40,282 bases of DNA from Escherichia phage P1723 (MT465573), one strand, 5' to 3'. Positions 9,770-36,754 are shown, counted from the first letter of the stretch. Numbers and translations: made by a program. The notes: generated by a model not told the origin, from the sequence alone.

Positions 9770-10474
9770 ATGTCATTCAATCGTAAAGCAATCCTGACTA
9801 CCGCTCTGGGTATTTGTGAACCGTATGCGTACCTGACCAAGCCTGACTATGGCAACGAAGAGCGTGGCTTCGGTAACCCTCGTGGTGTCTATAAGGTCAA
9901 CCTGACCATCGACAACAAGAACCCGCGCTGTCAGTCCATGATTGACGAAATCGTTAAGGCGCACGAAGAGCACTTCGCTCAGCGCAAGGCAGAGTACGAA
10001 GAGAACCCACCTCAGGTACAGCGCGGTAAGAAACCACTGCTGCCGTATGAGGGTGACCTACCGTTCATCGACAACGGTGACGGTACGACTACCTTTAAGT
10101 TCTCCTGCTATGCGTCCTATCAAGACAAGAAGACAAAAGAGACCAAGGCCATTAACGTGACCATCGTGGACTCAAAAGGTAAACGCATCGAAGACCTGCC
10201 AGCTTTCATTGGCGGTGGCTCTAAGCTGAAGCTGAAGTACAGCCTGATGCCTTACACTTGGAACCCTACCGTAGGTGCTTCCGTTAAGCTGCAACTGTCT
10301 AGCGTAATGCTGGTCGAGCTGGCTGCTGGTGGCGCTGGTGGTGGTGATGATTGGGGCGACGACACCGAGGAAGGTGGCTACGAAGCTCAGCAGTCGCAGG
10401 GTCAACGTGATGAGCAGTCTTGGCAGCAGGGCGATGAGTCCGATGGCGAAGCTGATTCTGACGACGACTTCTAA
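9770..10474 (+). CDS. 2.5: Single-stranded DNA-binding protein, gene 2.5
   Basis: 234 aa; EPYAY..KPDYGNEERGFGNPRGVYKV...DGTTTFKF..YASYQDKKTKETK...acidic C-terminus ending DDDF, as T7 gp2.5. Confidence 0.95.
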   Translation: MSFNRKAILTTALGICEPYAYLTKPDYGNEERGFGNPRGVYKVNLTIDNKNPRCQSMIDEIVKAHEEHFAQRKAEYEENPPQVQRGKKPLLPYEGDLPFIDNGDGTTTFKFSCYASYQDKKTKETKAINVTIVDSKGKRIEDLPAFIGGGSKLKLKYSLMPYTWNPTVGASVKLQLSSVMLVELAAGGAGGGDDWGDDTEEGGYEAQQSQGQRDEQSWQQGDESDGEADSDDDF

Positions 10475-10948
10475 ATGACACTCAAGGAGAAACTGGAGGC
10501 TTACTCTAAGGTTTCTCCGTCTGGATGCTGGGAGTGGCAACGCGGAAAGGCTGGTAACGGGTATGGGTCAATCTCTATCGGAAACCAAAAGTCTGCGTAT
10601 GCCCACCGAGTGGCGTACCAAGAGTTTATCGGACAGATACCCGATGGCTACGTGGTACGCCACAAATGTGATAATCCTAGCTGCTGCAACCCAGAGCACC
10701 TCGAAGTGGGGACTCAGGTTGATAACATGCAGGATTGTAAAAGGCGGGGCCGATTGGTTCCACCTCCAGTTCAACGCGGAGAAGCCAACAACAAGACTAA
10801 GCTGACCGGAGACCAAGTGTCTTACGTGTTGTCATCAACCAAGTCCAACCGAGAGTTAGCTCAAGAACTGGGCGTTACGCCACAAGCTATAGGCTGGAGG
10901 AGGAAACATGGCAAACCCATATGCAGGGAGTTACATAACGAAGCCTAA
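10475..10948 (+). CDS. HNH-family endonuclease (gene 2.8 position)
   Basis: 157 aa; AHRVAYQEF...GYVVRHKCDNPSCCNPEHLEVGTQVDN carries the His/Asn/His and Cys ligand pattern of HNH nucleases; overlaps gene 3 by 41 nt. Confidence 0.8.
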   Translation: MTLKEKLEAYSKVSPSGCWEWQRGKAGNGYGSISIGNQKSAYAHRVAYQEFIGQIPDGYVVRHKCDNPSCCNPEHLEVGTQVDNMQDCKRRGRLVPPPVQRGEANNKTKLTGDQVSYVLSSTKSNRELAQELGVTPQAIGWRRKHGKPICRELHNEA

Positions 10949-11357
10949 CGGGTTCCGTTCAGGTCTGGAAGATAAGGTGTCCAAGCAACTCGAATCTAAG
11001 AACGTTAAGTTCGAGTACGAGATGTGGAAGATACCTTATGTAATCCCGGCAAGTAATCATTTATACTGCCCCGACTTTTTGTTACCCAATGGTATCTTTG
11101 TTGAGACCAAGGGTTTATGGGAAGCGGCAGATCGTAAGAAACATCTATTGATTCGCGAGCAATACCCTGAACTGGATATTCGCCTCGTGTTCTCAAGTTC
11201 ACGCACCAAGATTTACAAAGGGTCACCGACCAGTTACGCGGAATTTTGCGAGAAGCACAACATTCAGTTCGCTGACAAGTTGATTCCTGTAAGTTGGCTC
11301 AAGGAGCCTAAGCGTGAAGTACCATTCGACAAGCTCAAGGAGGGCAAAAAGAAATGA
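10908..11357 (+). CDS. 3: Endonuclease I (Holliday junction resolvase), gene 3
   Basis: 149 aa, nearly identical blocks to T7 gp3: FRSGLEDKVSKQLESK, PDFLLPNGIFVETKGLWE, HLLIREQ; GGAGG RBS. Confidence 0.95.
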   Translation: MANPYAGSYITKPNGFRSGLEDKVSKQLESKNVKFEYEMWKIPYVIPASNHLYCPDFLLPNGIFVETKGLWEAADRKKHLLIREQYPELDIRLVFSSSRTKIYKGSPTSYAEFCEKHNIQFADKLIPVSWLKEPKREVPFDKLKEGKKK

Positions 11358-30523: not shown

Positions 30524-33500
30524 ATGGCTAAATATGACAAAACTATCCCTAACCAATACGATGGACTGATTCGTCAAGCTGCCGATGCCAACGGGGTCTC
30601 TTATGACCTCCTTCGACACTTAACGTTCAATGAGTCCAGCTTTAACGCTAACGCTAAGTCACCTACAGGACCTAAGGGTATCATGCAGATGACTGCTGGT
30701 ACTGGTCGAGCTATGGGACTCAATGTCTTCAAAGAGGACAACCCGGCTGATGACCGTTACAACCCTGAGAAAGCAATCCCGGCTGCTGCTAAGTTGCTTG
30801 CTGGCTTCGTTAAGAAGTCTAATGGCGATGAGCTGCGAGCCGCCCTGATGTATAACGTTGGGGAGGGCCCGACAGGTATGCCACAGATTGAGGCCTACGA
30901 TAAGCAGGACTACGGTAGCATTGGTGATGAGGGTCGCCTGTACATCCGTAAACTGGTAGGTTCCGCTAAGTCCCTGCGCTCAGAAGCCATTGAGAAGTTC
31001 GGTGACTTCGCAAAGGGAATCTTTGAGGTCGAAGCCCCAGCCTCTAAGGTAACTCGTGGGGCTCCCGGTCCAGAGACTGCAAGCGTCAACATGGACACGT
31101 CTAACCTTAAGTATGACCAATTGAACGAACGTACTGCTGCCAATACGTGGGCAGTACAGAACGACCAGCCAGAGGAGAACTATAAGCCTCAGGGAGCTGA
31201 CAAAGGGTTATTCTATAAGACTGGTGACGTGGCTAAGGTTGAGGTACAGAACTCCGCTCTAGCTACGATGGCTGATGCAGCCCTTGGCGACAACGGGTAT
31301 GACGTTTGGTCTGCAACTATTACACCATCCAAGTGGAACAGCTACACGTTCACTCCTGATGATATCCAAAAGATTCGTGAGAGTGGTCTTCGTGCTGAGT
31401 ACGCTCAGTCTGTCCTTGGGTCCAACGCTGAGACTCTCGATGAGATGATTAAGCTGGCTAAGGAACGTCAGGACCGTCAGGACTCTGTAGCCGATGCTGG
31501 TATGGGTGCCCACCTCGTGGGTGCTCTCGCTGGTGCTGCTGTAGACCCTGTGAGCTACATCCCGATTGCTGGTGCTGCTTCCAAGGGTATCTCCCTAGGT
31601 CGTCGTATGGTGACTGTAGGTACTCAAGCTGGTGCTCTGAACGTAGCCTCTGAAGTTTTACGTGTGGGTGTTGGTGGTGGACATGCAGATTACATGATGG
31701 CGGCTGGTGGTGGCTTACTGTTCGGTGCTGGTCTGACTGGTGTGTTACATCGTGCCAACCCTCGTGAAGCTGAGAGCGTCCTTGCGGCAACAGCTCGCGC
31801 TGAGTCTCGTGATGCAGCCATGCGTGGCCTACCGGATAACTCTGCTGTGAGTACCGAGGGTCTGGACTTTAAGACCTCTCCGAATGGCTCTCAATATGCA
31901 ACCCTCGACAGTGGCGAAGTAGTCCTGCCGGATGGTCAAGTGCTGTCAACCAGTAACCCCCTGAACCCCAATAGTGCCTCTCAGTTTGCTTCGGTAGACC
32001 CTGAGGTGACTAAGGGCTCGATGGGTGTACGTATGGGTTCCATGACCGATATCTCCCTGCACCTGTCTCGTTCTGCCGACGATGAAGTCCGTGGTGTTGC
32101 CTATGACCTCCTGCGTTCCACTACAGGTTACGTTAAAGGCGGCTCTGGTAAGTCCGGTACGGTTGCCTCTGACGTGGCTGAGCGTCTGCACTACACCGAT
32201 ACGTCCGACCTAACGGCTATTGAGCAGTTCACACGTGATGCAATCAAAGACCCTGAGTGGACTATGGGTGCTAACCGTGGGGATGCTCTGGCACGTGAGA
32301 CCGTGGTGCGTCGTGCAGTGGAAGCACAGGAAGATGGTATTGGCGTCTCTAAGTTGACCAAGGGTGAATCCAAGCTGCGTGATGAAATCTTCCGGTTCAC
32401 CACCAGCAAGGAAGACGCTATGTCTAACCCTGCGATGTTCGGTAACCCTAAAGCAATCCCTGTGATGAACAAGACGAAACTTAGCGGCAAATACTTCCCG
32501 GTGGCTTATGTACCTGAGAAGGTGGCGGCATTCCGTAATGTCTTTGGGAACTCCGTTGAGGATGCTCAAGGTGCCATGCAGCGCCACTTCTTGGCTGACT
32601 ATGCGTCCAACCCTAACACGAAGTCTGTGGTAGACGAGATGGTAGCCGCTAAGAACGGTCTGGATAGCCCAGCCGCAGTTACACCTGAGATGGTTGAGAA
32701 GTGGGCCAACGACAAGGCTTTCGGTATCGTAAACGGTGAGTTCACTACCAACCTTGCACTGGACGATATCGCCTCTGCGTCCAACTCAATGAACCTCGGG
32801 AAGAATAACTTCCTTGAGAGCCGTCATGGGTTCAGTATGGGATTTAAGTCTCAACTGCCGGATGGTCAGATGTTCTCCCTGAACGACCTGCGTAGCTTTG
32901 ACGCTAACAAGCTGCTGCGTAACTATGCCCGTAGAACCAATGGTGACATTGCGATTCACTCAACGGGTCAGACTACTCAGGACTTACTGGATAAGATTAC
33001 CGCTATCCGTGAGCGAGCCAAGAGTGACCCTTCCGGTAAGCTGAAGCAGGACGCTAACGCCCTCGAAGATACCGTGAAGTTACTCACTGGTCGTGCTCGT
33101 CGTGACCCTAACGGCGCTGTGGACATGGCTATGGGTGTTCTTAAAGACCTGAGCTTTGTCGCTAAGAACGCCTACATGGGTCTTCTGAACCTGACGGAGA
33201 TTGGTGGTATGATTGCCAAGGGTAACGTTCGTGCTCTGTTCCACGGTATTCCTGTTGTTCGTGACATGATGCGTTCCACCAAGGCTGTCTCCGGGACTGA
33301 CCTTCAGAAGCTGGAGTATGGCCTGATGGGTCGTGAAGTGGACAATATGATTCGCCCTCAACGGGCAGACCTCATTCAGTCTCTTCGTGACAACTCTGGT
33401 ATGGGTTCATTCGGTGCAAACGCTCTGGGTTCCCTTAAGTTCGGGACTCAGGAGATTGCCGCTGCGTGGCCTATGAGTAAGCTGCTACAAGGCACCACGA

Positions 33501-34486
33501 ACTACCTGCTTAGCGCTGCACGTCAGGGTCTCATTGGGAACCTTATTGAACACGCTGCGACGGGTAAGTCCTCCAAGTGGCTCAATGAGAACTTCCTGAA
33601 GTCTGCCAGCATCACGCCTGAGCAGTCCAAGGGTATCATTCAGTTCCTCAAAGACCACGCCAAGGTGGACGCTAACGGTAAGTGGACCTTCCCAGACCAA
33701 CACGCGATGAGCCTTGACCCTCGGGCTATGGACTTGTGGCGGATGGCTGATAAGGTTGCAGATGAGACCATGCTCCGACCATCCAAGATTAATGCACAGA
33801 ACGTTAAACAGTTAGGCCCGATTGTTGGCGCTGCGTTGCAGTTCAAAACGTTCGTCATTAAGTCCCTCAATGGTAAGACACTACGTACTTACTATCAGGC
33901 CACTCGCGATGGTCGTGCGATGGACGCTGCATTGTCCACAGGTATCTCCGGGATGCTTGCTGGTTCGTTCTACGTGATGCAGTCCCACATGAAAGCTGCT
34001 GGTCTCCCTGAGAACCAACGTGAGGCTTATCTCTTCAAGGCCTTAACGCCTGAGATGGTTGCCTACGCTGCGGCCTCCCGAAGCTCTATCACTGGTGCGC
34101 CGTTAGGTGTTGCAGATATGCTTCTGGGGCCAATTGGACTGACTCCAAGCCAGTACATGCGTACCACTATCAGTCCTAAGGATGCACCACAGCGAGACCC
34201 TAACAAGGCTTCCTCTGGTCGTTCCGGTACGGCTGAGCTGATGGGTGCTATTGGTCAACAGTTCCCTGTGGCTAACTACGTTGGCTCTACGGTGTCTCTC
34301 GGTCAGAACCTCTGGAACCTCGGAGGTGCCAATGGCCCTCGCGACTCCACGGAGTTCACTACAGGTGTCTATCAGAATATGAAGGAAGTTCTCCCGAACG
34401 ACCCGATTACTCAGAGACTACTTCTGGGTGCTTTCGAAGAGCACATCTACACAACCGAGCGACCTAAGCGTTCAGAGCGCTGGTAA
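30524..34486 (+). CDS. 16: Internal virion protein D with N-terminal lytic transglycosylase domain, gene 16
   Basis: 1320 aa; N-terminus GVSYDLLR...ES.FN..AKS.TGP.G.MQ.T is the transglycosylase motif region of T7 gp16; later segments (FGNPKAI, ILTGRARR, MDLWR.ADKVADE.MLRP) align with T7 gp16. Confidence 0.95.
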   Translation: MAKYDKTIPNQYDGLIRQAADANGVSYDLLRHLTFNESSFNANAKSPTGPKGIMQMTAGTGRAMGLNVFKEDNPADDRYNPEKAIPAAAKLLAGFVKKSNGDELRAALMYNVGEGPTGMPQIEAYDKQDYGSIGDEGRLYIRKLVGSAKSLRSEAIEKFGDFAKGIFEVEAPASKVTRGAPGPETASVNMDTSNLKYDQLNERTAANTWAVQNDQPEENYKPQGADKGLFYKTGDVAKVEVQNSALATMADAALGDNGYDVWSATITPSKWNSYTFTPDDIQKIRESGLRAEYAQSVLGSNAETLDEMIKLAKERQDRQDSVADAGMGAHLVGALAGAAVDPVSYIPIAGAASKGISLGRRMVTVGTQAGALNVASEVLRVGVGGGHADYMMAAGGGLLFGAGLTGVLHRANPREAESVLAATARAESRDAAMRGLPDNSAVSTEGLDFKTSPNGSQYATLDSGEVVLPDGQVLSTSNPLNPNSASQFASVDPEVTKGSMGVRMGSMTDISLHLSRSADDEVRGVAYDLLRSTTGYVKGGSGKSGTVASDVAERLHYTDTSDLTAIEQFTRDAIKDPEWTMGANRGDALARETVVRRAVEAQEDGIGVSKLTKGESKLRDEIFRFTTSKEDAMSNPAMFGNPKAIPVMNKTKLSGKYFPVAYVPEKVAAFRNVFGNSVEDAQGAMQRHFLADYASNPNTKSVVDEMVAAKNGLDSPAAVTPEMVEKWANDKAFGIVNGEFTTNLALDDIASASNSMNLGKNNFLESRHGFSMGFKSQLPDGQMFSLNDLRSFDANKLLRNYARRTNGDIAIHSTGQTTQDLLDKITAIRERAKSDPSGKLKQDANALEDTVKLLTGRARRDPNGAVDMAMGVLKDLSFVAKNAYMGLLNLTEIGGMIAKGNVRALFHGIPVVRDMMRSTKAVSGTDLQKLEYGLMGREVDNMIRPQRADLIQSLRDNSGMGSFGANALGSLKFGTQEIAAAWPMSKLLQGTTNYLLSAARQGLIGNLIEHAATGKSSKWLNENFLKSASITPEQSKGIIQFLKDHAKVDANGKWTFPDQHAMSLDPRAMDLWRMADKVADETMLRPSKINAQNVKQLGPIVGAALQFKTFVIKSLNGKTLRTYYQATRDGRAMDAALSTGISGMLAGSFYVMQSHMKAAGLPENQREAYLFKALTPEMVAYAAASRSSITGAPLGVADMLLGPIGLTPSQYMRTTISPKDAPQRDPNKASSGRSGTAELMGAIGQQFPVANYVGSTVSLGQNLWNLGGANGPRDSTEFTTGVYQNMKEVLPNDPITQRLLLGAFEEHIYTTERPKRSERW

Positions 34487-34487
34487 T

Positions 34488-34510
34488 CATTAACCCACAC
34501 TATAGGGAGA
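34488..34510 (+). promoter_or_regulatory. Phage RNAP promoter (phi17-like), copy 1
   Basis: TCATTAACCCACACTATAGGGAGAGG, +1 at 34505. Confidence 0.8.
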
Positions 34511-34550
34511 GGCAATCACGTCCTCCCTCTAGTTTTCATAAGGAGGCCAC

Positions 34551-34793
34551 ATGGCAAACGTCATTAAGACAGTTTATACGTACCCATTAGATGGCACCAC
34601 GACTGACTTTGCGATTCCCTTTGAGTACCTGTCACGTAAGTTCGTGGTGGTAACGCTCATTGGTCAAGACCGTAAAGAGCTGGTTGTTGTGACCGATTAT
34701 CGCTTCGCTACCCGCAACCTTATCTCTACGACTAAGGCATGGGGACCAGCCGATAACTATCAACAGATTGAGCTACACAACCGAGCGACCTAA
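34551..34793 (+). CDS. Truncated duplicate of the tail fiber N-terminus (gp17 residues 1-74 plus 6 aa), created by the tandem duplication
   Basis: Identical to the first 74 codons of gene 17, then runs through the duplication junction into LHNRAT and a TAA; has its own promoter and AAGGAGG RBS. Confidence 0.6.
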   Translation: MANVIKTVYTYPLDGTTTDFAIPFEYLSRKFVVVTLIGQDRKELVVVTDYRFATRNLISTTKAWGPADNYQQIELHNRAT

Positions 34794-34813
34794 GCGTTCA
34801 GAGCGCTGGTAAT

Positions 34814-34836
34814 CATTAACCCACACTATAGGGAGA
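34814..34836 (+). promoter_or_regulatory. Phage RNAP promoter (phi17-like), copy 2
   Basis: Identical to copy 1; +1 at 34831. Confidence 0.8.
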
Positions 34837-34876
34837 GGCAATCACGTCCTCCCTCTAGTTTTCATAAGGAGGCCAC

Positions 34877-36754
34877 ATGGCAAACGTCATTAAGACAGTT
34901 TATACGTACCCATTAGATGGCACCACGACTGACTTTGCGATTCCCTTTGAGTACCTGTCACGTAAGTTCGTGGTGGTAACGCTCATTGGTCAAGACCGTA
35001 AAGAGCTGGTTGTTGTGACCGATTATCGCTTCGCTACCCGCAACCTTATCTCTACGACTAAGGCATGGGGACCAGCCGATAACTATCAACAGATTGAGAT
35101 TCGTCGATACACTTCTGCAAGTGAACGTCTGGTTGACTTCAGTGATGGTTCCATCCTGCGAGCTACCGACCTTAACGTATCTCAGATTCAGACCCTGCAC
35201 GTTGCTGAAGAAGCGCGAGACCTGACCGCTGATACCATTGGCGTTAACAACGATGGCAACCTTGATGGTCGTGGTCGTCGTATCGTTAACGTGGCAGATG
35301 GTGTGGACGCTGGTGACGTTGTTACCGTAGGCCAGATGAACCGTTGGTCTGGTAGTGCTGCCGACAGCGCCAATAAAGCCAAGGTGTCCGAGACCAACGC
35401 CAAGACCTCTGAGACAAACTCAAAGGCTTCCGAGCTGTTAGCCCAGAAGTGGGCTGAGAACCCTAAAGGAACACCTGTGGTCTCCAGTCAGTATTCCGCT
35501 AAGCATTGGGCGTTGACCTCTGAGGATAGCGCTAATGCGTCTGCAACCTCTGCGGGTAACTCTCAGGCACAAGTAGCGAACGCTAAGACACAGGCTGACC
35601 GTGCTGGTGGTTACGCCAATGACGCTATGGGTTACCGCGATGCAGCCAACACGTCTGCTCAACAGGCCGCTGTATCTGAGGGCAACGCTGCGACATCTGC
35701 AAGTAACGCAAAGACTGAATCCGATAAGCTAATTCAGTTTAACACTCTGGTTGACCGGATTAACGGAGTGGCTGTACGTCAGGTTGGTGAGTTTGAGGTC
35801 CACAACTCTCGTACTTACGCTAAGCCGGGTACAGTGTATGGGGATGGTCAACTGCTGAACCGCAACCAGTTCCCTGCACTAGTAGCTGAGTTACTGGCAG
35901 GACACCTCCCGGTTGTCTCTGACTCCGAATGGCTGGCTGACCCCGGTAAACGTGGTTGCTATACCCTAGGTAACGGTACGACCACTTTCCGTGTACCAGA
36001 CCTCAACGGTGTCTATGCGGGTTCCATTAAGGCTCCTGTGTTCCGTGGTGACGCTGGGTTTACTGTAGGTGATGTTCAGAAGTCAGCTCTACCAAACATT
36101 GAGGGTCTGATTGCACTTGCCGATAATGAGCTGGCCTCCAGTGCCTCTGGTGCATTCTACAACGCTGGGCGCTCCAACAAAGGTGCAACTAACGATACCG
36201 GCGGTGCTCAGTTAGGTTTCGACGCGTCACTGTGGAACGAAATCTACAAGAAGGACACCAACGAAGCCCGAATGAACTCCGTGGTAATCGTATGGGTCAT
36301 CCGTACTCACGGGGTGGTGAACAATCCGGGTTCTGTAGATGCCGCTGTGTTGTCTTCTCGTGTCGAGCAGGTTTATACCGAACTGCTTACACGTATGGTT
36401 GCTAATGAGAACCTCCAGAAGTCTGGACAGAAGTTCCTTCGCCGAGTGTTTAGCGACCGCACGTCTCAGGGGCAACTTTCGACTGGAAGAACAGTGACTT
36501 GCTCTGAGGATATTCTCAACAAGATGCTAGTAATTGGCGCACACACCGATAGCCAAAACCCAAACTCTCAGATATATCGTTGTAGCCCGTTCCTCCAGCC
36601 GAACACTGCTGACCGAATGCACCTCACTCTATCTAACTGGTCGTACACCTTAGAGTTCCCTGCGGCGAATCAAGTTAAACTAGTAGCGGCTACAGGTTCT
36701 GGAGTACAGGCAATCAACTATATTGACGTAGTGTGCGACTACCCACAAACGTAA
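34877..36754 (+). CDS. 17: Tail fiber protein, gene 17 (T7-like N-terminal domain, divergent distal region)
   Basis: 625 aa; residues 1-150 (MANVIKTV..FEYL.RKFVVVTLIG.DRK...DYRFATR...KAWGPAD, GSILRA.DLNV.QIQT.HVAEEARDLT.DTIGVNNDG.LD.RGRRIVN) match T7 gp17; distal part differs and contains a tail-collar-like motif. Confidence 0.95.
   Translation: MANVIKTVYTYPLDGTTTDFAIPFEYLSRKFVVVTLIGQDRKELVVVTDYRFATRNLISTTKAWGPADNYQQIEIRRYTSASERLVDFSDGSILRATDLNVSQIQTLHVAEEARDLTADTIGVNNDGNLDGRGRRIVNVADGVDAGDVVTVGQMNRWSGSAADSANKAKVSETNAKTSETNSKASELLAQKWAENPKGTPVVSSQYSAKHWALTSEDSANASATSAGNSQAQVANAKTQADRAGGYANDAMGYRDAANTSAQQAAVSEGNAATSASNAKTESDKLIQFNTLVDRINGVAVRQVGEFEVHNSRTYAKPGTVYGDGQLLNRNQFPALVAELLAGHLPVVSDSEWLADPGKRGCYTLGNGTTTFRVPDLNGVYAGSIKAPVFRGDAGFTVGDVQKSALPNIEGLIALADNELASSASGAFYNAGRSNKGATNDTGGAQLGFDASLWNEIYKKDTNEARMNSVVIVWVIRTHGVVNNPGSVDAAVLSSRVEQVYTELLTRMVANENLQKSGQKFLRRVFSDRTSQGQLSTGRTVTCSEDILNKMLVIGAHTDSQNPNSQIYRCSPFLQPNTADRMHLTLSNWSYTLEFPAANQVKLVAATGSGVQAINYIDVVCDYPQT

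What the first reader, a model, noticed from the sequence alone, without database searches (positions are those of the whole stretch)
35327..36754. Mosaic tail fiber: T7-like anchor domain fused to a longer, divergent distal region with a tail-collar-like motif
The first ~150 residues of gp17 are near-identical to T7, but the remaining ~475 residues do not resemble the T7 or T3 distal fiber as I recall them, and the protein is 625 aa versus about 553-558. The segment LLNRNQFPALVAELLAGHLPVVSDSEWLADPGKRGCYTLGNGTTTFRVPDLNGVYAGS resembles the phage tail-collar fold found in receptor-binding fibers of unrelated phages. This suggests horizontal replacement of the receptor-binding module and a host range different from T7/T3.
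Basis: partly seen in the sequence, partly recalled or inferred. Interest (0 to 1): 0.55.

Follow-up and report, generated by a model that had tools for sequence, protein, structure and literature searches.

The report
Modular T7-type tail fibre, swapped tip
This is the tail-fibre gene of a T7-like coliphage (Escherichia phage P1723), built from a T7-type virion anchor, a shaft, a "collar" module shared with T5-like phage fibres and a small tip that was exchanged relative to its closest relative. It is a clean but ordinary example of how these phages shuffle receptor-binding parts.

Summary
The observation largely holds. The ORF at 34877-36754 encodes a 625-aa gp17. Residues 1-150 are a T7-type anchor, 76% identical to T7 and T3, so homologous but not "near-identical". 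Residues 151-625 have no meaningful sequence similarity to the T7 or T3 distal fibre. The quoted motif (aa 326-383) is a real tail-collar domain, though borderline by Pfam score.

The fibre is not unique. The window is Escherichia phage P1723, and this protein is already deposited as a tail fibre. The same architecture occurs in phages SRT7, KKE5P and vB_YenP_WX1/WX2.

A host range different from T7 is untested. KKE5P, which carries nearly the same tip, grows on E. coli K-12.

I rate this a new member of a known kind, of low to moderate interest. A perfect 326-bp tandem duplication at the gp16/gp17 junction is a separate oddity and may be an assembly artefact.

The parts
34877..36754 (+). gp17 tail-fibre gene, 625 aa plus stop; identical to QKM75972.1 of Escherichia phage P1723
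   Evidence: ORF list. 100% identity over 625/625 aa to P0071, named 'non-contractile tail fiber protein [Escherichia phage P1723]', on a contig of 40282 nt.
34877..35326 (+). aa 1-150: T7-type N-terminal anchor domain, which docks the fibre on the tail
   Evidence: Pfam PF03906, E=5.5e-57. 75.8% identity to T7 and T3, 100% to SRT7. Matches PDB 7boz_a and 8e4g_O.
35327..35776 (+). aa 151-300: Ala/Ser/Asn-rich shaft with 7-residue 'SETNAKT'-type repeats and a 'YSAKHWA' interruption; presumed trimeric coiled coil
   Evidence: Composition A 21%, S 13%, N 9%. 21/27-nt direct repeats at 35383-35430. Sub-threshold YadA_stalk hit at aa 135-174. Only weak hits to T7/T3 shafts. Matches shaft parts of several PHROG tail-fibre families. 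This part was not modelled.
35777..36316 (+). aa 301-480: collar module. It consists of a helix, the GNGTTTFRVPDLNG strands, an insert of about 85 aa and a third strand (ARMNSVVIVWVIRTHG, aa 464-479). It is homologous to the central module of T5-like L-shaped fibres.
   Evidence: Exact string located. Pfam Collar aligns only aa 362-378 to profile positions 39-54. Columns G365, G367, T369-P374 are invariant or nearly invariant across 42 homologues.
36323..36421 (+). aa 483-515: connector helix. VNNPGSVDAAVLSSRVEQVYTEL is conserved, and the tips diverge immediately after it.
   Evidence: AF2 helix at model residues 194-226 and 9-36. Alignment A2 shows the connector conserved in SRT7, KKE5P, WX1, P0072, P0002 and P0073, with divergence after '...VYTEL'.
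36428..36751 (+). aa 518-625: C-terminal tip, predicted eight-stranded beta-sandwich; probable receptor-binding domain
36241..36752 (+). Exchanged tip cassette relative to SRT7. nt 36241-36320 differ from both SRT7 and KKE5P. From nt ~36330 to the last codon the sequence is KKE5P-like. Identity to SRT7 resumes at the stop codon.
   Evidence: Sliding identity, three-way nucleotide alignment, whole-genome BLASTN gap at 36385-36746. aa 481-625 are 95% identical to KKE5P, 66% to WX1 and 33% to SRT7.
34447..35098 (+). Two perfect tandem copies of a 326-bp unit. Each contains the gp16 3' end, a phage promoter, the RBS and the first 74 codons of gp17. The first copy yields an 80-aa truncated ORF at 34551-34793.
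   Evidence: the repeat finder, exact extent and junctions, promoter consensus at 34490-34510 and 34816-34836. The duplication is absent from SRT7.

Best explanation
The gene encodes a T7-type tail fibre assembled from exchangeable modules.

- aa 1-150 are the conserved anchor that docks the fibre to the tail at the gp11/gp12 junction, as in T7.
- aa 151-300 form a repetitive, probably coiled-coil shaft.
- aa 301-480 form a tail-collar-type module. It takes the place of the T7 'pyramid' region and is homologous to a module in the L-shaped fibres of T5-like phages.
- A conserved helix (aa 483-515) leads into a small beta-sandwich tip (aa 518-625). The tip is predicted to have the T7 gp17 tip fold and most likely makes the first, reversible contact with the cell surface through its distal loops, probably LPS as for T7.

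Specificity is changed by homologous recombination that swaps the tip. One crossover falls in or just before the conserved collar-strand/connector-helix sequence. The other falls at the stop codon and the short conserved spacer after it. This phage (P1723) has an SRT7-type genome and fibre trunk carrying a KKE5P-type tip.

Shown here: the domain boundaries, the homologies, the recombination breakpoints and the predicted folds. Inferred: trimer formation, the docking site, that the tip rather than the collar insert binds the receptor, and the receptor's identity.
For: - Anchor: PF03906 E=5.5e-57; 76% identity to T7/T3; the gene lies between gp16 and the holin, as in T7 and T3.
- Tip swap: window vs SRT7 is 99-100% nt identical on both flanks but 19-38% across most of the tip (36419-36713). 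Window vs KKE5P is 92-99% there but 50-70% on the flanks. Breakpoints are resolved.
- Among P1723, SRT7 and KKE5P the collar insert (aa 408-447) has only 1-2 substitutions, so the differences concentrate in the tip.
- Alternative tips follow the same connector in SRT7 and P0073. A collar+tip unit also exists as a free-standing second fibre gene in another autographivirus-like contig.
- No Peptidase_S74 chaperone or hydrolase domain is present.
- Established knowledge: the T7 gp17 C-terminal tip is the receptor-binding domain (Garcia-Doval & van Raaij 2012, cited as ref 67 in PMC7693777).
Against: - The tip fold rests on monomer AF2 models with shallow alignments (5-42 sequences, few covering the tip) and moderate confidence: whole-model mean pLDDT 76.5 and 69.7, with tip blocks ranging from about 50 to 87.
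- There is no sequence-level support for homology with the T7 tip: hhalign probability 0.6% and no PDB profile hits.
- No receptor or host-range data exist for P1723. The LPS assignment for KKE5P in its preprint is itself only an inference from similarity to T7.
- In T4 gp12 the segment inserted in the collar carries receptor binding. The equivalent insert here is hypervariable among distant homologues, so a role for the collar module in binding is not excluded.
Confidence: 0.7

Rival explanations
1. The collar module is the main receptor-binding element, through its ~85-aa insert, as in the T4 short fibre gp12. On this view the C-terminal sandwich is mainly a trimerisation/folding cap or an accessory carbohydrate-binding domain.
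For: In Pfam's description of the Collar family, much of the function of T4 gp12 is placed in the region inserted between the collar strands. The insert is the most length- and sequence-variable part among distant homologues (alignment A2 columns 401-460). The profile hit to a solved short tail fibre spans this insert.
Against: Between the closely related fibres of P1723, SRT7 and KKE5P the insert is almost invariant, while the tip is replaced. The tip's best structural matches are known receptor-binding distal domains. In T5-like homologues the collar module lies mid-fibre, with further receptor-binding and chaperone domains downstream (PMC4728585).
Confidence: 0.12
2. This is the first reader's reading taken literally: the whole distal 475 aa is a foreign receptor-binding module from unrelated phages, giving a receptor and host range unlike T7/T3.
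For: No sequence similarity to the T7/T3 distal fibre beyond the shaft. The collar module is shared with T5-like siphophages and ~60-kb siphophages.
Against: Only aa ~235-480 have relatives outside T7-like phages. The tip is found almost only on T7-anchored fibres and is predicted to have the T7 tip fold. KKE5P, with a 95%-identical tip, grows on E. coli K-12, which is also a T7 host.
Confidence: 0.1
3. The protein is an enzymatic tailspike (depolymerase or esterase) rather than a simple fibre.
Confidence: 0.03

Closest known systems
Tail fibres of Escherichia phages SRT7 (AXC34569.1, Foetvirus) and KKE5P (XLQ29406.1), and of Yersinia phages vB_YenP_WX1/WX2
   Same: They share the four-part architecture of T7 anchor, shaft, collar module and helix+tip. 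SRT7 is 100%, 99% and 94% identical over aa 1-150, 151-300 and 301-480. KKE5P is 95% identical over aa 301-625. WX1 is 51% identical over aa 152-625.
   Different: The SRT7 tip is only 33% identical, so it is a different allele. The KKE5P anchor is only 78% identical and its genome flanks are 50-70% identical, which places it in a different genus. WX1 is diverged throughout and comes from a Yersinia host.
Bacteriophage T7/T3 gp17 (PDB 7boz N-terminal part; 4a0t/4a0u C-terminal 371-553)
   Different: It is 67-72 aa longer. The T7 pyramid region is replaced by a collar module. There is no detectable sequence similarity in the distal ~325 aa.
L-shaped (lateral) tail fibre LtfA of T5-like phage DT57C (PDB 8hqz chain d) and related T5-like and ~60-kb siphophage fibres
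   Same: The central collar module is homologous: aa 234-479 align to LtfA 535-787 at E=9e-31, with 36-40% identity to many such fibres.
   Different: LtfA attaches through an N-terminal lasso to LtfC and ends in O-antigen-binding regions plus a Peptidase_S74 autocleaving chaperone (PMC10713586, PMC4728585). None of these is present here.
T4 short tail fibre gp12 collar domain (Pfam PF07484; PDB 1ocy, 5lye)
   Different: An extra ~22-aa insertion splits the motif. The HxH metal-site motif of many collar proteins is replaced (…LPNIEG…). Here a further helix and tip follow the collar, whereas in gp12 the head domain forms the distal end.

Membership tests
T7-type tail fibre gp17 (Autographiviridae) | N-terminal ~150-aa anchor domain (Pfam PF03906) above the curated threshold | tested here: met
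   192.3 bits against a cutoff of 25.2, aa 1-155. 75.8% identity to T7 and T3.
T7-type tail fibre gp17 (Autographiviridae) | Gene located between internal virion protein gp16 and the holin/small terminase genes, behind a phage RNA-polymerase promoter | tested here: met
   gp16 at 30524-34486, fibre at 34877-36754, then 68-aa and 90-aa ORFs, as in T7, T3, SRT7 and KKE5P. Promoter consensus at 34816-34836.
T7-type tail fibre gp17 (Autographiviridae) | T7-like distal region (pyramid plus tip, residues 371-553) recognisable by sequence | tested here: not met
   BLASTP finds nothing for aa 315-625. hhalign of the tip profile against T7/T3 371-end gives probability 0.6%. The tip profile has 0 hits against PDB sequences.
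T7-type tail fibre gp17 (Autographiviridae) | Tip domain with the T7 gp17 eight-stranded beta-sandwich fold | tested here: met
T7-type tail fibre gp17 (Autographiviridae) | Homotrimer, six copies docked at the gp11/gp12 interface | not testable with these tools
   Inferred from anchor homology to the solved T7 complexes 7boz, 8e4g and 8dsp.
Phage tail collar domain (Pfam PF07484) | Score at or above Pfam's gathering threshold of 24 bits | tested here: inconclusive
   22.5 bits on the whole protein. 24.4 bits, E=2.9e-5, on aa 290-625, but no single stretch passes on its own. 15 of 42 homologues match at E<=0.01.
Phage tail collar domain (Pfam PF07484) | Helix, loop and two strands, with a third strand about 100 residues downstream; fold similar to T4 gp12 | tested here: met
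T5-like L-shaped tail fibre (LtfA / pb1) | N-terminal LtfC-binding region and trimeric helix of T5-type fibres | tested here: not met
   The N-terminus is T7-type. The match to 8hqz_d is confined to LtfA residues 535-793.
T5-like L-shaped tail fibre (LtfA / pb1) | C-terminal Peptidase_S74 intramolecular chaperone | tested here: not met
   No PF13884 hit in the window protein, whereas 14 of 42 collar-module homologues carry it.

The most novel reading that the evidence does not exclude
The fibre may be bivalent. On this reading the collar module's variable insert acts as a second, side-on binding site (as in T4 gp12) in addition to the T7-like tip, so two receptor specificities evolve on different time scales within one 625-aa fibre. 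Separately, if the 326-bp duplication is real, the phage expresses an 80-aa anchor fragment from its own promoter that could compete for fibre-docking sites and modulate fibre occupancy.
Probability: 0.1. Interest if true: 0.5.

Novelty: new member of a known kind. Interest (0 to 1): 0.25.

Why it matters
Fibres of T7-like phages are the main handle for host-range engineering. This locus is a naturally validated graft point: the conserved collar strand and connector helix (…VWVIRTHGVVNNPGSVDAAVLxSRVEQVYTEL) on one side and the stop codon on the other. At this point a ~110-140-aa tip has been exchanged between phages of different genera while the trunk was kept. The locus also suggests that the T7 tip fold persists in fibres where sequence similarity is gone. 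That helps in annotating 'orphan' fibre tips. The tip has no PHROG family and only 3-4 sequence relatives among 1.84 billion representative proteins. Beyond that, this is an expected kind of mosaicism and not a new mechanism.

Tried and rejected
- Sequence-profile tests for homology between this tip and the T7/T3 tip gave no signal: hhalign A3 vs A4 and the tip profile against all PDB sequences. The T7-tip link therefore rests on predicted fold only.
- PHROGs has no family for aa 471-625. NCBIfam has nothing meaningful for the protein or for the 80-aa fragment.
- An exhaustive phmmer search of the tip against 1.84 billion representatives found only self, a WX1-like protein, a protein sharing just the connector, and one 30%-identical protein. 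tblastn of the tip against 50,697 phage records found only KKE5P, WX1 and WX2. SRT7's tip is too diverged for that query but is 33% identical by pairwise BLASTP.
- An exact-protein contig look-up found nothing. The cluster look-up identified the source as phage P1723.
- The literature search for P1723 found nothing substantive; the one phage-related paper it returned (an ICTV taxonomy summary) had no mention of P1723 in its readable main text. The KKE5P preprint gives no experimental receptor. A Foetvirus 'Lyn' infecting Kluyvera has a 39,408-bp genome, so it is not this 40,282-bp window.
- I considered and rejected a depolymerase/tailspike and a C-terminal autocleaving chaperone, because no such domains are found.
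- Simple sigma-70 promoter and terminator scans around the gene found no more sites than in shuffled sequence.

Full report
**What is at the coordinates.** The finding (35327-36754) is codons 151-625 plus the stop of a 625-aa ORF at 34877-36754 on the + strand. The ORF lies between the 1320-aa gp16 homologue (30524-34486) and small holin-like and terminase-small-subunit-like ORFs. T7, T3, SRT7 and KKE5P have the same arrangement. The protein is 100% identical to QKM75972.1, 'non-contractile tail fiber protein [Escherichia phage P1723]', from a contig of exactly the window's length. The window is therefore that phage's genome. Its closest relative in the phage collection is Escherichia phage SRT7 (genus Foetvirus, Studiervirinae), collinear at 94-98% nucleotide identity.

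**Check of the observation.** The anchor is real: Pfam Phage_T7_tail, aa 1-155, E=5.5e-57. It is 75.8% identical to T7 and T3, which is not 'near-identical'. BLASTP of aa 151-625 against T7 and T3 gives only weak hits within aa 151-314, mostly the Ala/Ser/Asn-rich shaft. The best is T3 at 32% identity over 117 aa, E=1.7e-5. Nothing aligns for aa 315-625.

The quoted segment is aa 326-383. Pfam Collar aligns only aa 362-378, at 22.5 bits on the full protein (cutoff 24) and 24.4 bits on the aa 290-625 fragment. The partial alignment is explained by a ~22-aa insertion (HLPVVSDSEWLADPGKRGCYTL) between the collar helix and the GNGTTTFRVPDLNG strands.

Independent support for the collar assignment:
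- 15 of 42 homologues hit Collar.
- The motif columns are invariant or nearly so across homologues.
- A profile of the domain hits a solved short tail fibre (9cuy_c, E=2.4e-7).

**Anatomy.**
1. aa 1-150: anchor.
2. aa 151-300: shaft. It is 21% Ala and 13% Ser, with heptad-like 'SETNAKT' repeats visible as 21/27-nt DNA repeats, interrupted by a '...QKWAENP...YSAKHWA...' element.
3. aa 301-480: collar module, with an ~85-aa insert. Its third strand is ARMNSVVIVWVIRTHG (aa 464-479).
4. aa 483-515: a long helix. Its first part, VNNPGSVDAAVLSSRVEQVYTEL, is conserved among all relatives.
5. aa 518-625: an eight-stranded beta domain.

No Peptidase_S74 chaperone, hydrolase or beta-helix domain is detected.

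**Relatives of each module.** The collar module (roughly aa 235-480) matches residues 535-787 of DT57C LtfA, the L-shaped fibre of a T5-like phage (PDB 8hqz_d, E=9e-31). A profile of the module matches LtfA 592-793 at E=3.4e-63, and a second partial copy at 341-427. It is 36-40% identical to fibres of many T5-like and ~60-kb siphophages, most of which end in a Peptidase_S74 chaperone. So the part shared with 'unrelated phages' is this central module.

The tip has almost no sequence relatives:
- No PHROG family.
- Only KKE5P, WX1 and WX2 by tblastn in 50,697 phage records.
- Four hits in an exhaustive phmmer search of 1.84 billion representatives: self, a 69%-identical WX1-like protein, a protein sharing only the connector, and a 30%-identical protein.

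That last protein (P0074, 388 aa) is a free-standing collar+tip fibre encoded after the terminase gene in a 45-kb autographivirus-like contig. The canonical fibre slot of that contig holds a short 319-aa T7-anchor protein. The collar+helix+tip unit therefore behaves as a portable module.

Sequence methods do not see this relationship: hhalign probability is 0.6% and the PDB profile search gives 0 hits. I therefore treat 'T7-tip-like fold' as a moderately supported prediction and not as demonstrated homology.

**Mosaicism within the distal fibre.** I made a three-way nucleotide comparison of the window, SRT7 and KKE5P.
- The window is 99-100% identical to SRT7 from gp16 through nt ~36240 and again from the stop codon (36752) onward. 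It is only 19-38% identical across most of the tip (36419-36713).
- KKE5P is classified in Teseptimavirus. It is only 50-70% identical on the flanks and 78% identical in the anchor at the protein level, but 90-99% identical from nt ~35430 to 36750.
- Within 36241-36320 the window differs at about 20 positions from both other phages, and those two agree with each other. This indicates a third parental contribution.

In protein terms, aa 481-625 are 95% identical to KKE5P, 66% to WX1 and 33% to SRT7. Among the three E. coli phages the collar insert (aa 408-447) differs at only 1-2 positions. SRT7 and the metagenomic protein P0073 carry other tips directly after the same '...VEQVYTEL' connector.

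The simplest reading is homologous recombination. One crossover lies in or just upstream of the conserved collar-strand/connector sequence. The other lies at the stop codon and the short conserved spacer (TAAGGAACACGAGCAGGG) shared by all three phages.

**Mechanism (best explanation, confidence about 0.7).** This is a conventional T7-type fibre. The anchor docks to the tail. The shaft and collar module give a rigid trimeric trunk. The C-terminal sandwich makes the initial reversible contact with the cell surface, and its exchange retargets the phage.

The docking, the trimer and the receptor are inferred from T7 structures (7boz, 8e4g) and from the established role of the T7 gp17 tip (Garcia-Doval & van Raaij 2012, cited in PMC7693777). 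The receptor is unknown. The KKE5P preprint only infers LPS from similarity to T7. KKE5P's growth on E. coli K-12 W3350 argues that the KKE5P/P1723-type tip recognises something present on rough K-12 cells. There is therefore no evidence for a host range unlike that of T7.

The main rival is that the collar insert is the binding site, as in T4 gp12. It is disfavoured by the pattern of variation among close relatives, but it is not excluded for a second, more slowly evolving specificity.

**Comparison with known systems and novelty.** A conserved N-terminal anchor with horizontally exchanged C-terminal receptor-binding parts is the textbook picture for T7-like fibres and spikes (for example PMC7693777 and its ref 68). 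The protein is already deposited and annotated, and the same architecture is present in at least four other deposited phages.

The less obvious points are:
- a T5-LTF-type collar module sits in place of the T7 pyramid region;
- the tip is predicted to retain the T7 tip fold;
- there is a finely resolved natural tip swap between genera.

I rate this a new member of a known kind, interest 0.25.

**Other observations.** The gp16/gp17 junction carries a perfect 326-bp tandem duplication (34447-34772 and 34773-35098) with no junction microhomology. It duplicates the last 40 nt of gp16, a perfect copy of the phage promoter consensus (34490 and 34816; 13 genome-wide matches against 0 expected), the RBS and the first 74 codons of gp17. 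The result is an 80-aa ORF at 34551-34793. SRT7 lacks the duplication.

A perfect repeat without microhomology, in a phage with efficient recombination, is what a contig-end overlap left in after re-linearising an assembly would look like. I consider an artefact somewhat more likely than a real, recent duplication. Only reads or PCR can decide.

The window also has a 157-aa HNH-endonuclease-like ORF (10475-10948) between the SSB and endonuclease I genes that SRT7 lacks. The adjacent gene next to it is only 82% identical to SRT7. A patch of gp16 (about 33700-34150) is only 86-93% identical to SRT7.

Noticed in passing
window 34447-35098: Perfect tandem duplication of a 326-bp unit with no junction microhomology. 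It duplicates the gp16 3' end, the promoter before gene 17, the RBS and gp17 codons 1-74, giving a truncated 80-aa anchor-fragment ORF (34551-34793) with its own promoter. SRT7 lacks it. It is either a recent real duplication or an assembly (contig-end overlap) artefact.
   Followed up: partly
window 10475-10948: 157-aa ORF with an HNH-endonuclease-like motif (…HRVAYQ…CDNPSCCNPEHLE…), inserted between the SSB gene (9770-10474) and the endonuclease I gene (10908-11357). SRT7 has no counterpart (alignment gap), and the adjacent 10955-11357 is only 82% identical. This pattern is typical of a homing-endonuclease insertion.
   Followed up: partly
window ~33700-34150 (C-terminal third of gp16): A patch only 86-93% identical to SRT7, within otherwise 97-100% identical sequence. 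This suggests another small recombination tract in the internal virion protein gene.
   Followed up: no
window 36241-36320: Inside the fibre gene, an ~80-nt stretch (aa ~455-482) differs at about 20 positions from both SRT7 and KKE5P, which are identical to each other there. A third parental sequence therefore contributed at the left edge of the tip cassette.
   Followed up: partly
L007 6001-7167 (ENA ERZ27235502 contig k119_236561, 45 kb): A 388-aa protein (P0074) with the collar module and a 30%-identical tip, but no T7 anchor, is encoded downstream of the terminase gene. The canonical fibre slot in that contig holds a short 319-aa T7-anchor protein. This points to a two-protein (adapter plus fibre) version of the same modules.
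   Followed up: partly
PDB 8hqz chain d (DT57C LtfA) residues 341-427 and 592-793: The collar-module profile matches LtfA twice, so this T5-like lateral fibre contains two collar-type modules. Neither is in the resolved part of the published structure.
   Followed up: no
OP219460.1 (Yersinia phage vB_YenP_WX2) 25464-26816: The homologous fibre ORF lies under a feature annotated 'type II holin' in that record. This is probably a mis-annotation or an unannotated fibre gene.
   Followed up: no
window 35383-35430 and homologue P0073: The number of 7-residue 'SETNAKT'-type shaft repeats differs between homologues: 2-3 here and about 5 in P0073. This implies shaft-length variation by repeat gain and loss.
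   Followed up: no
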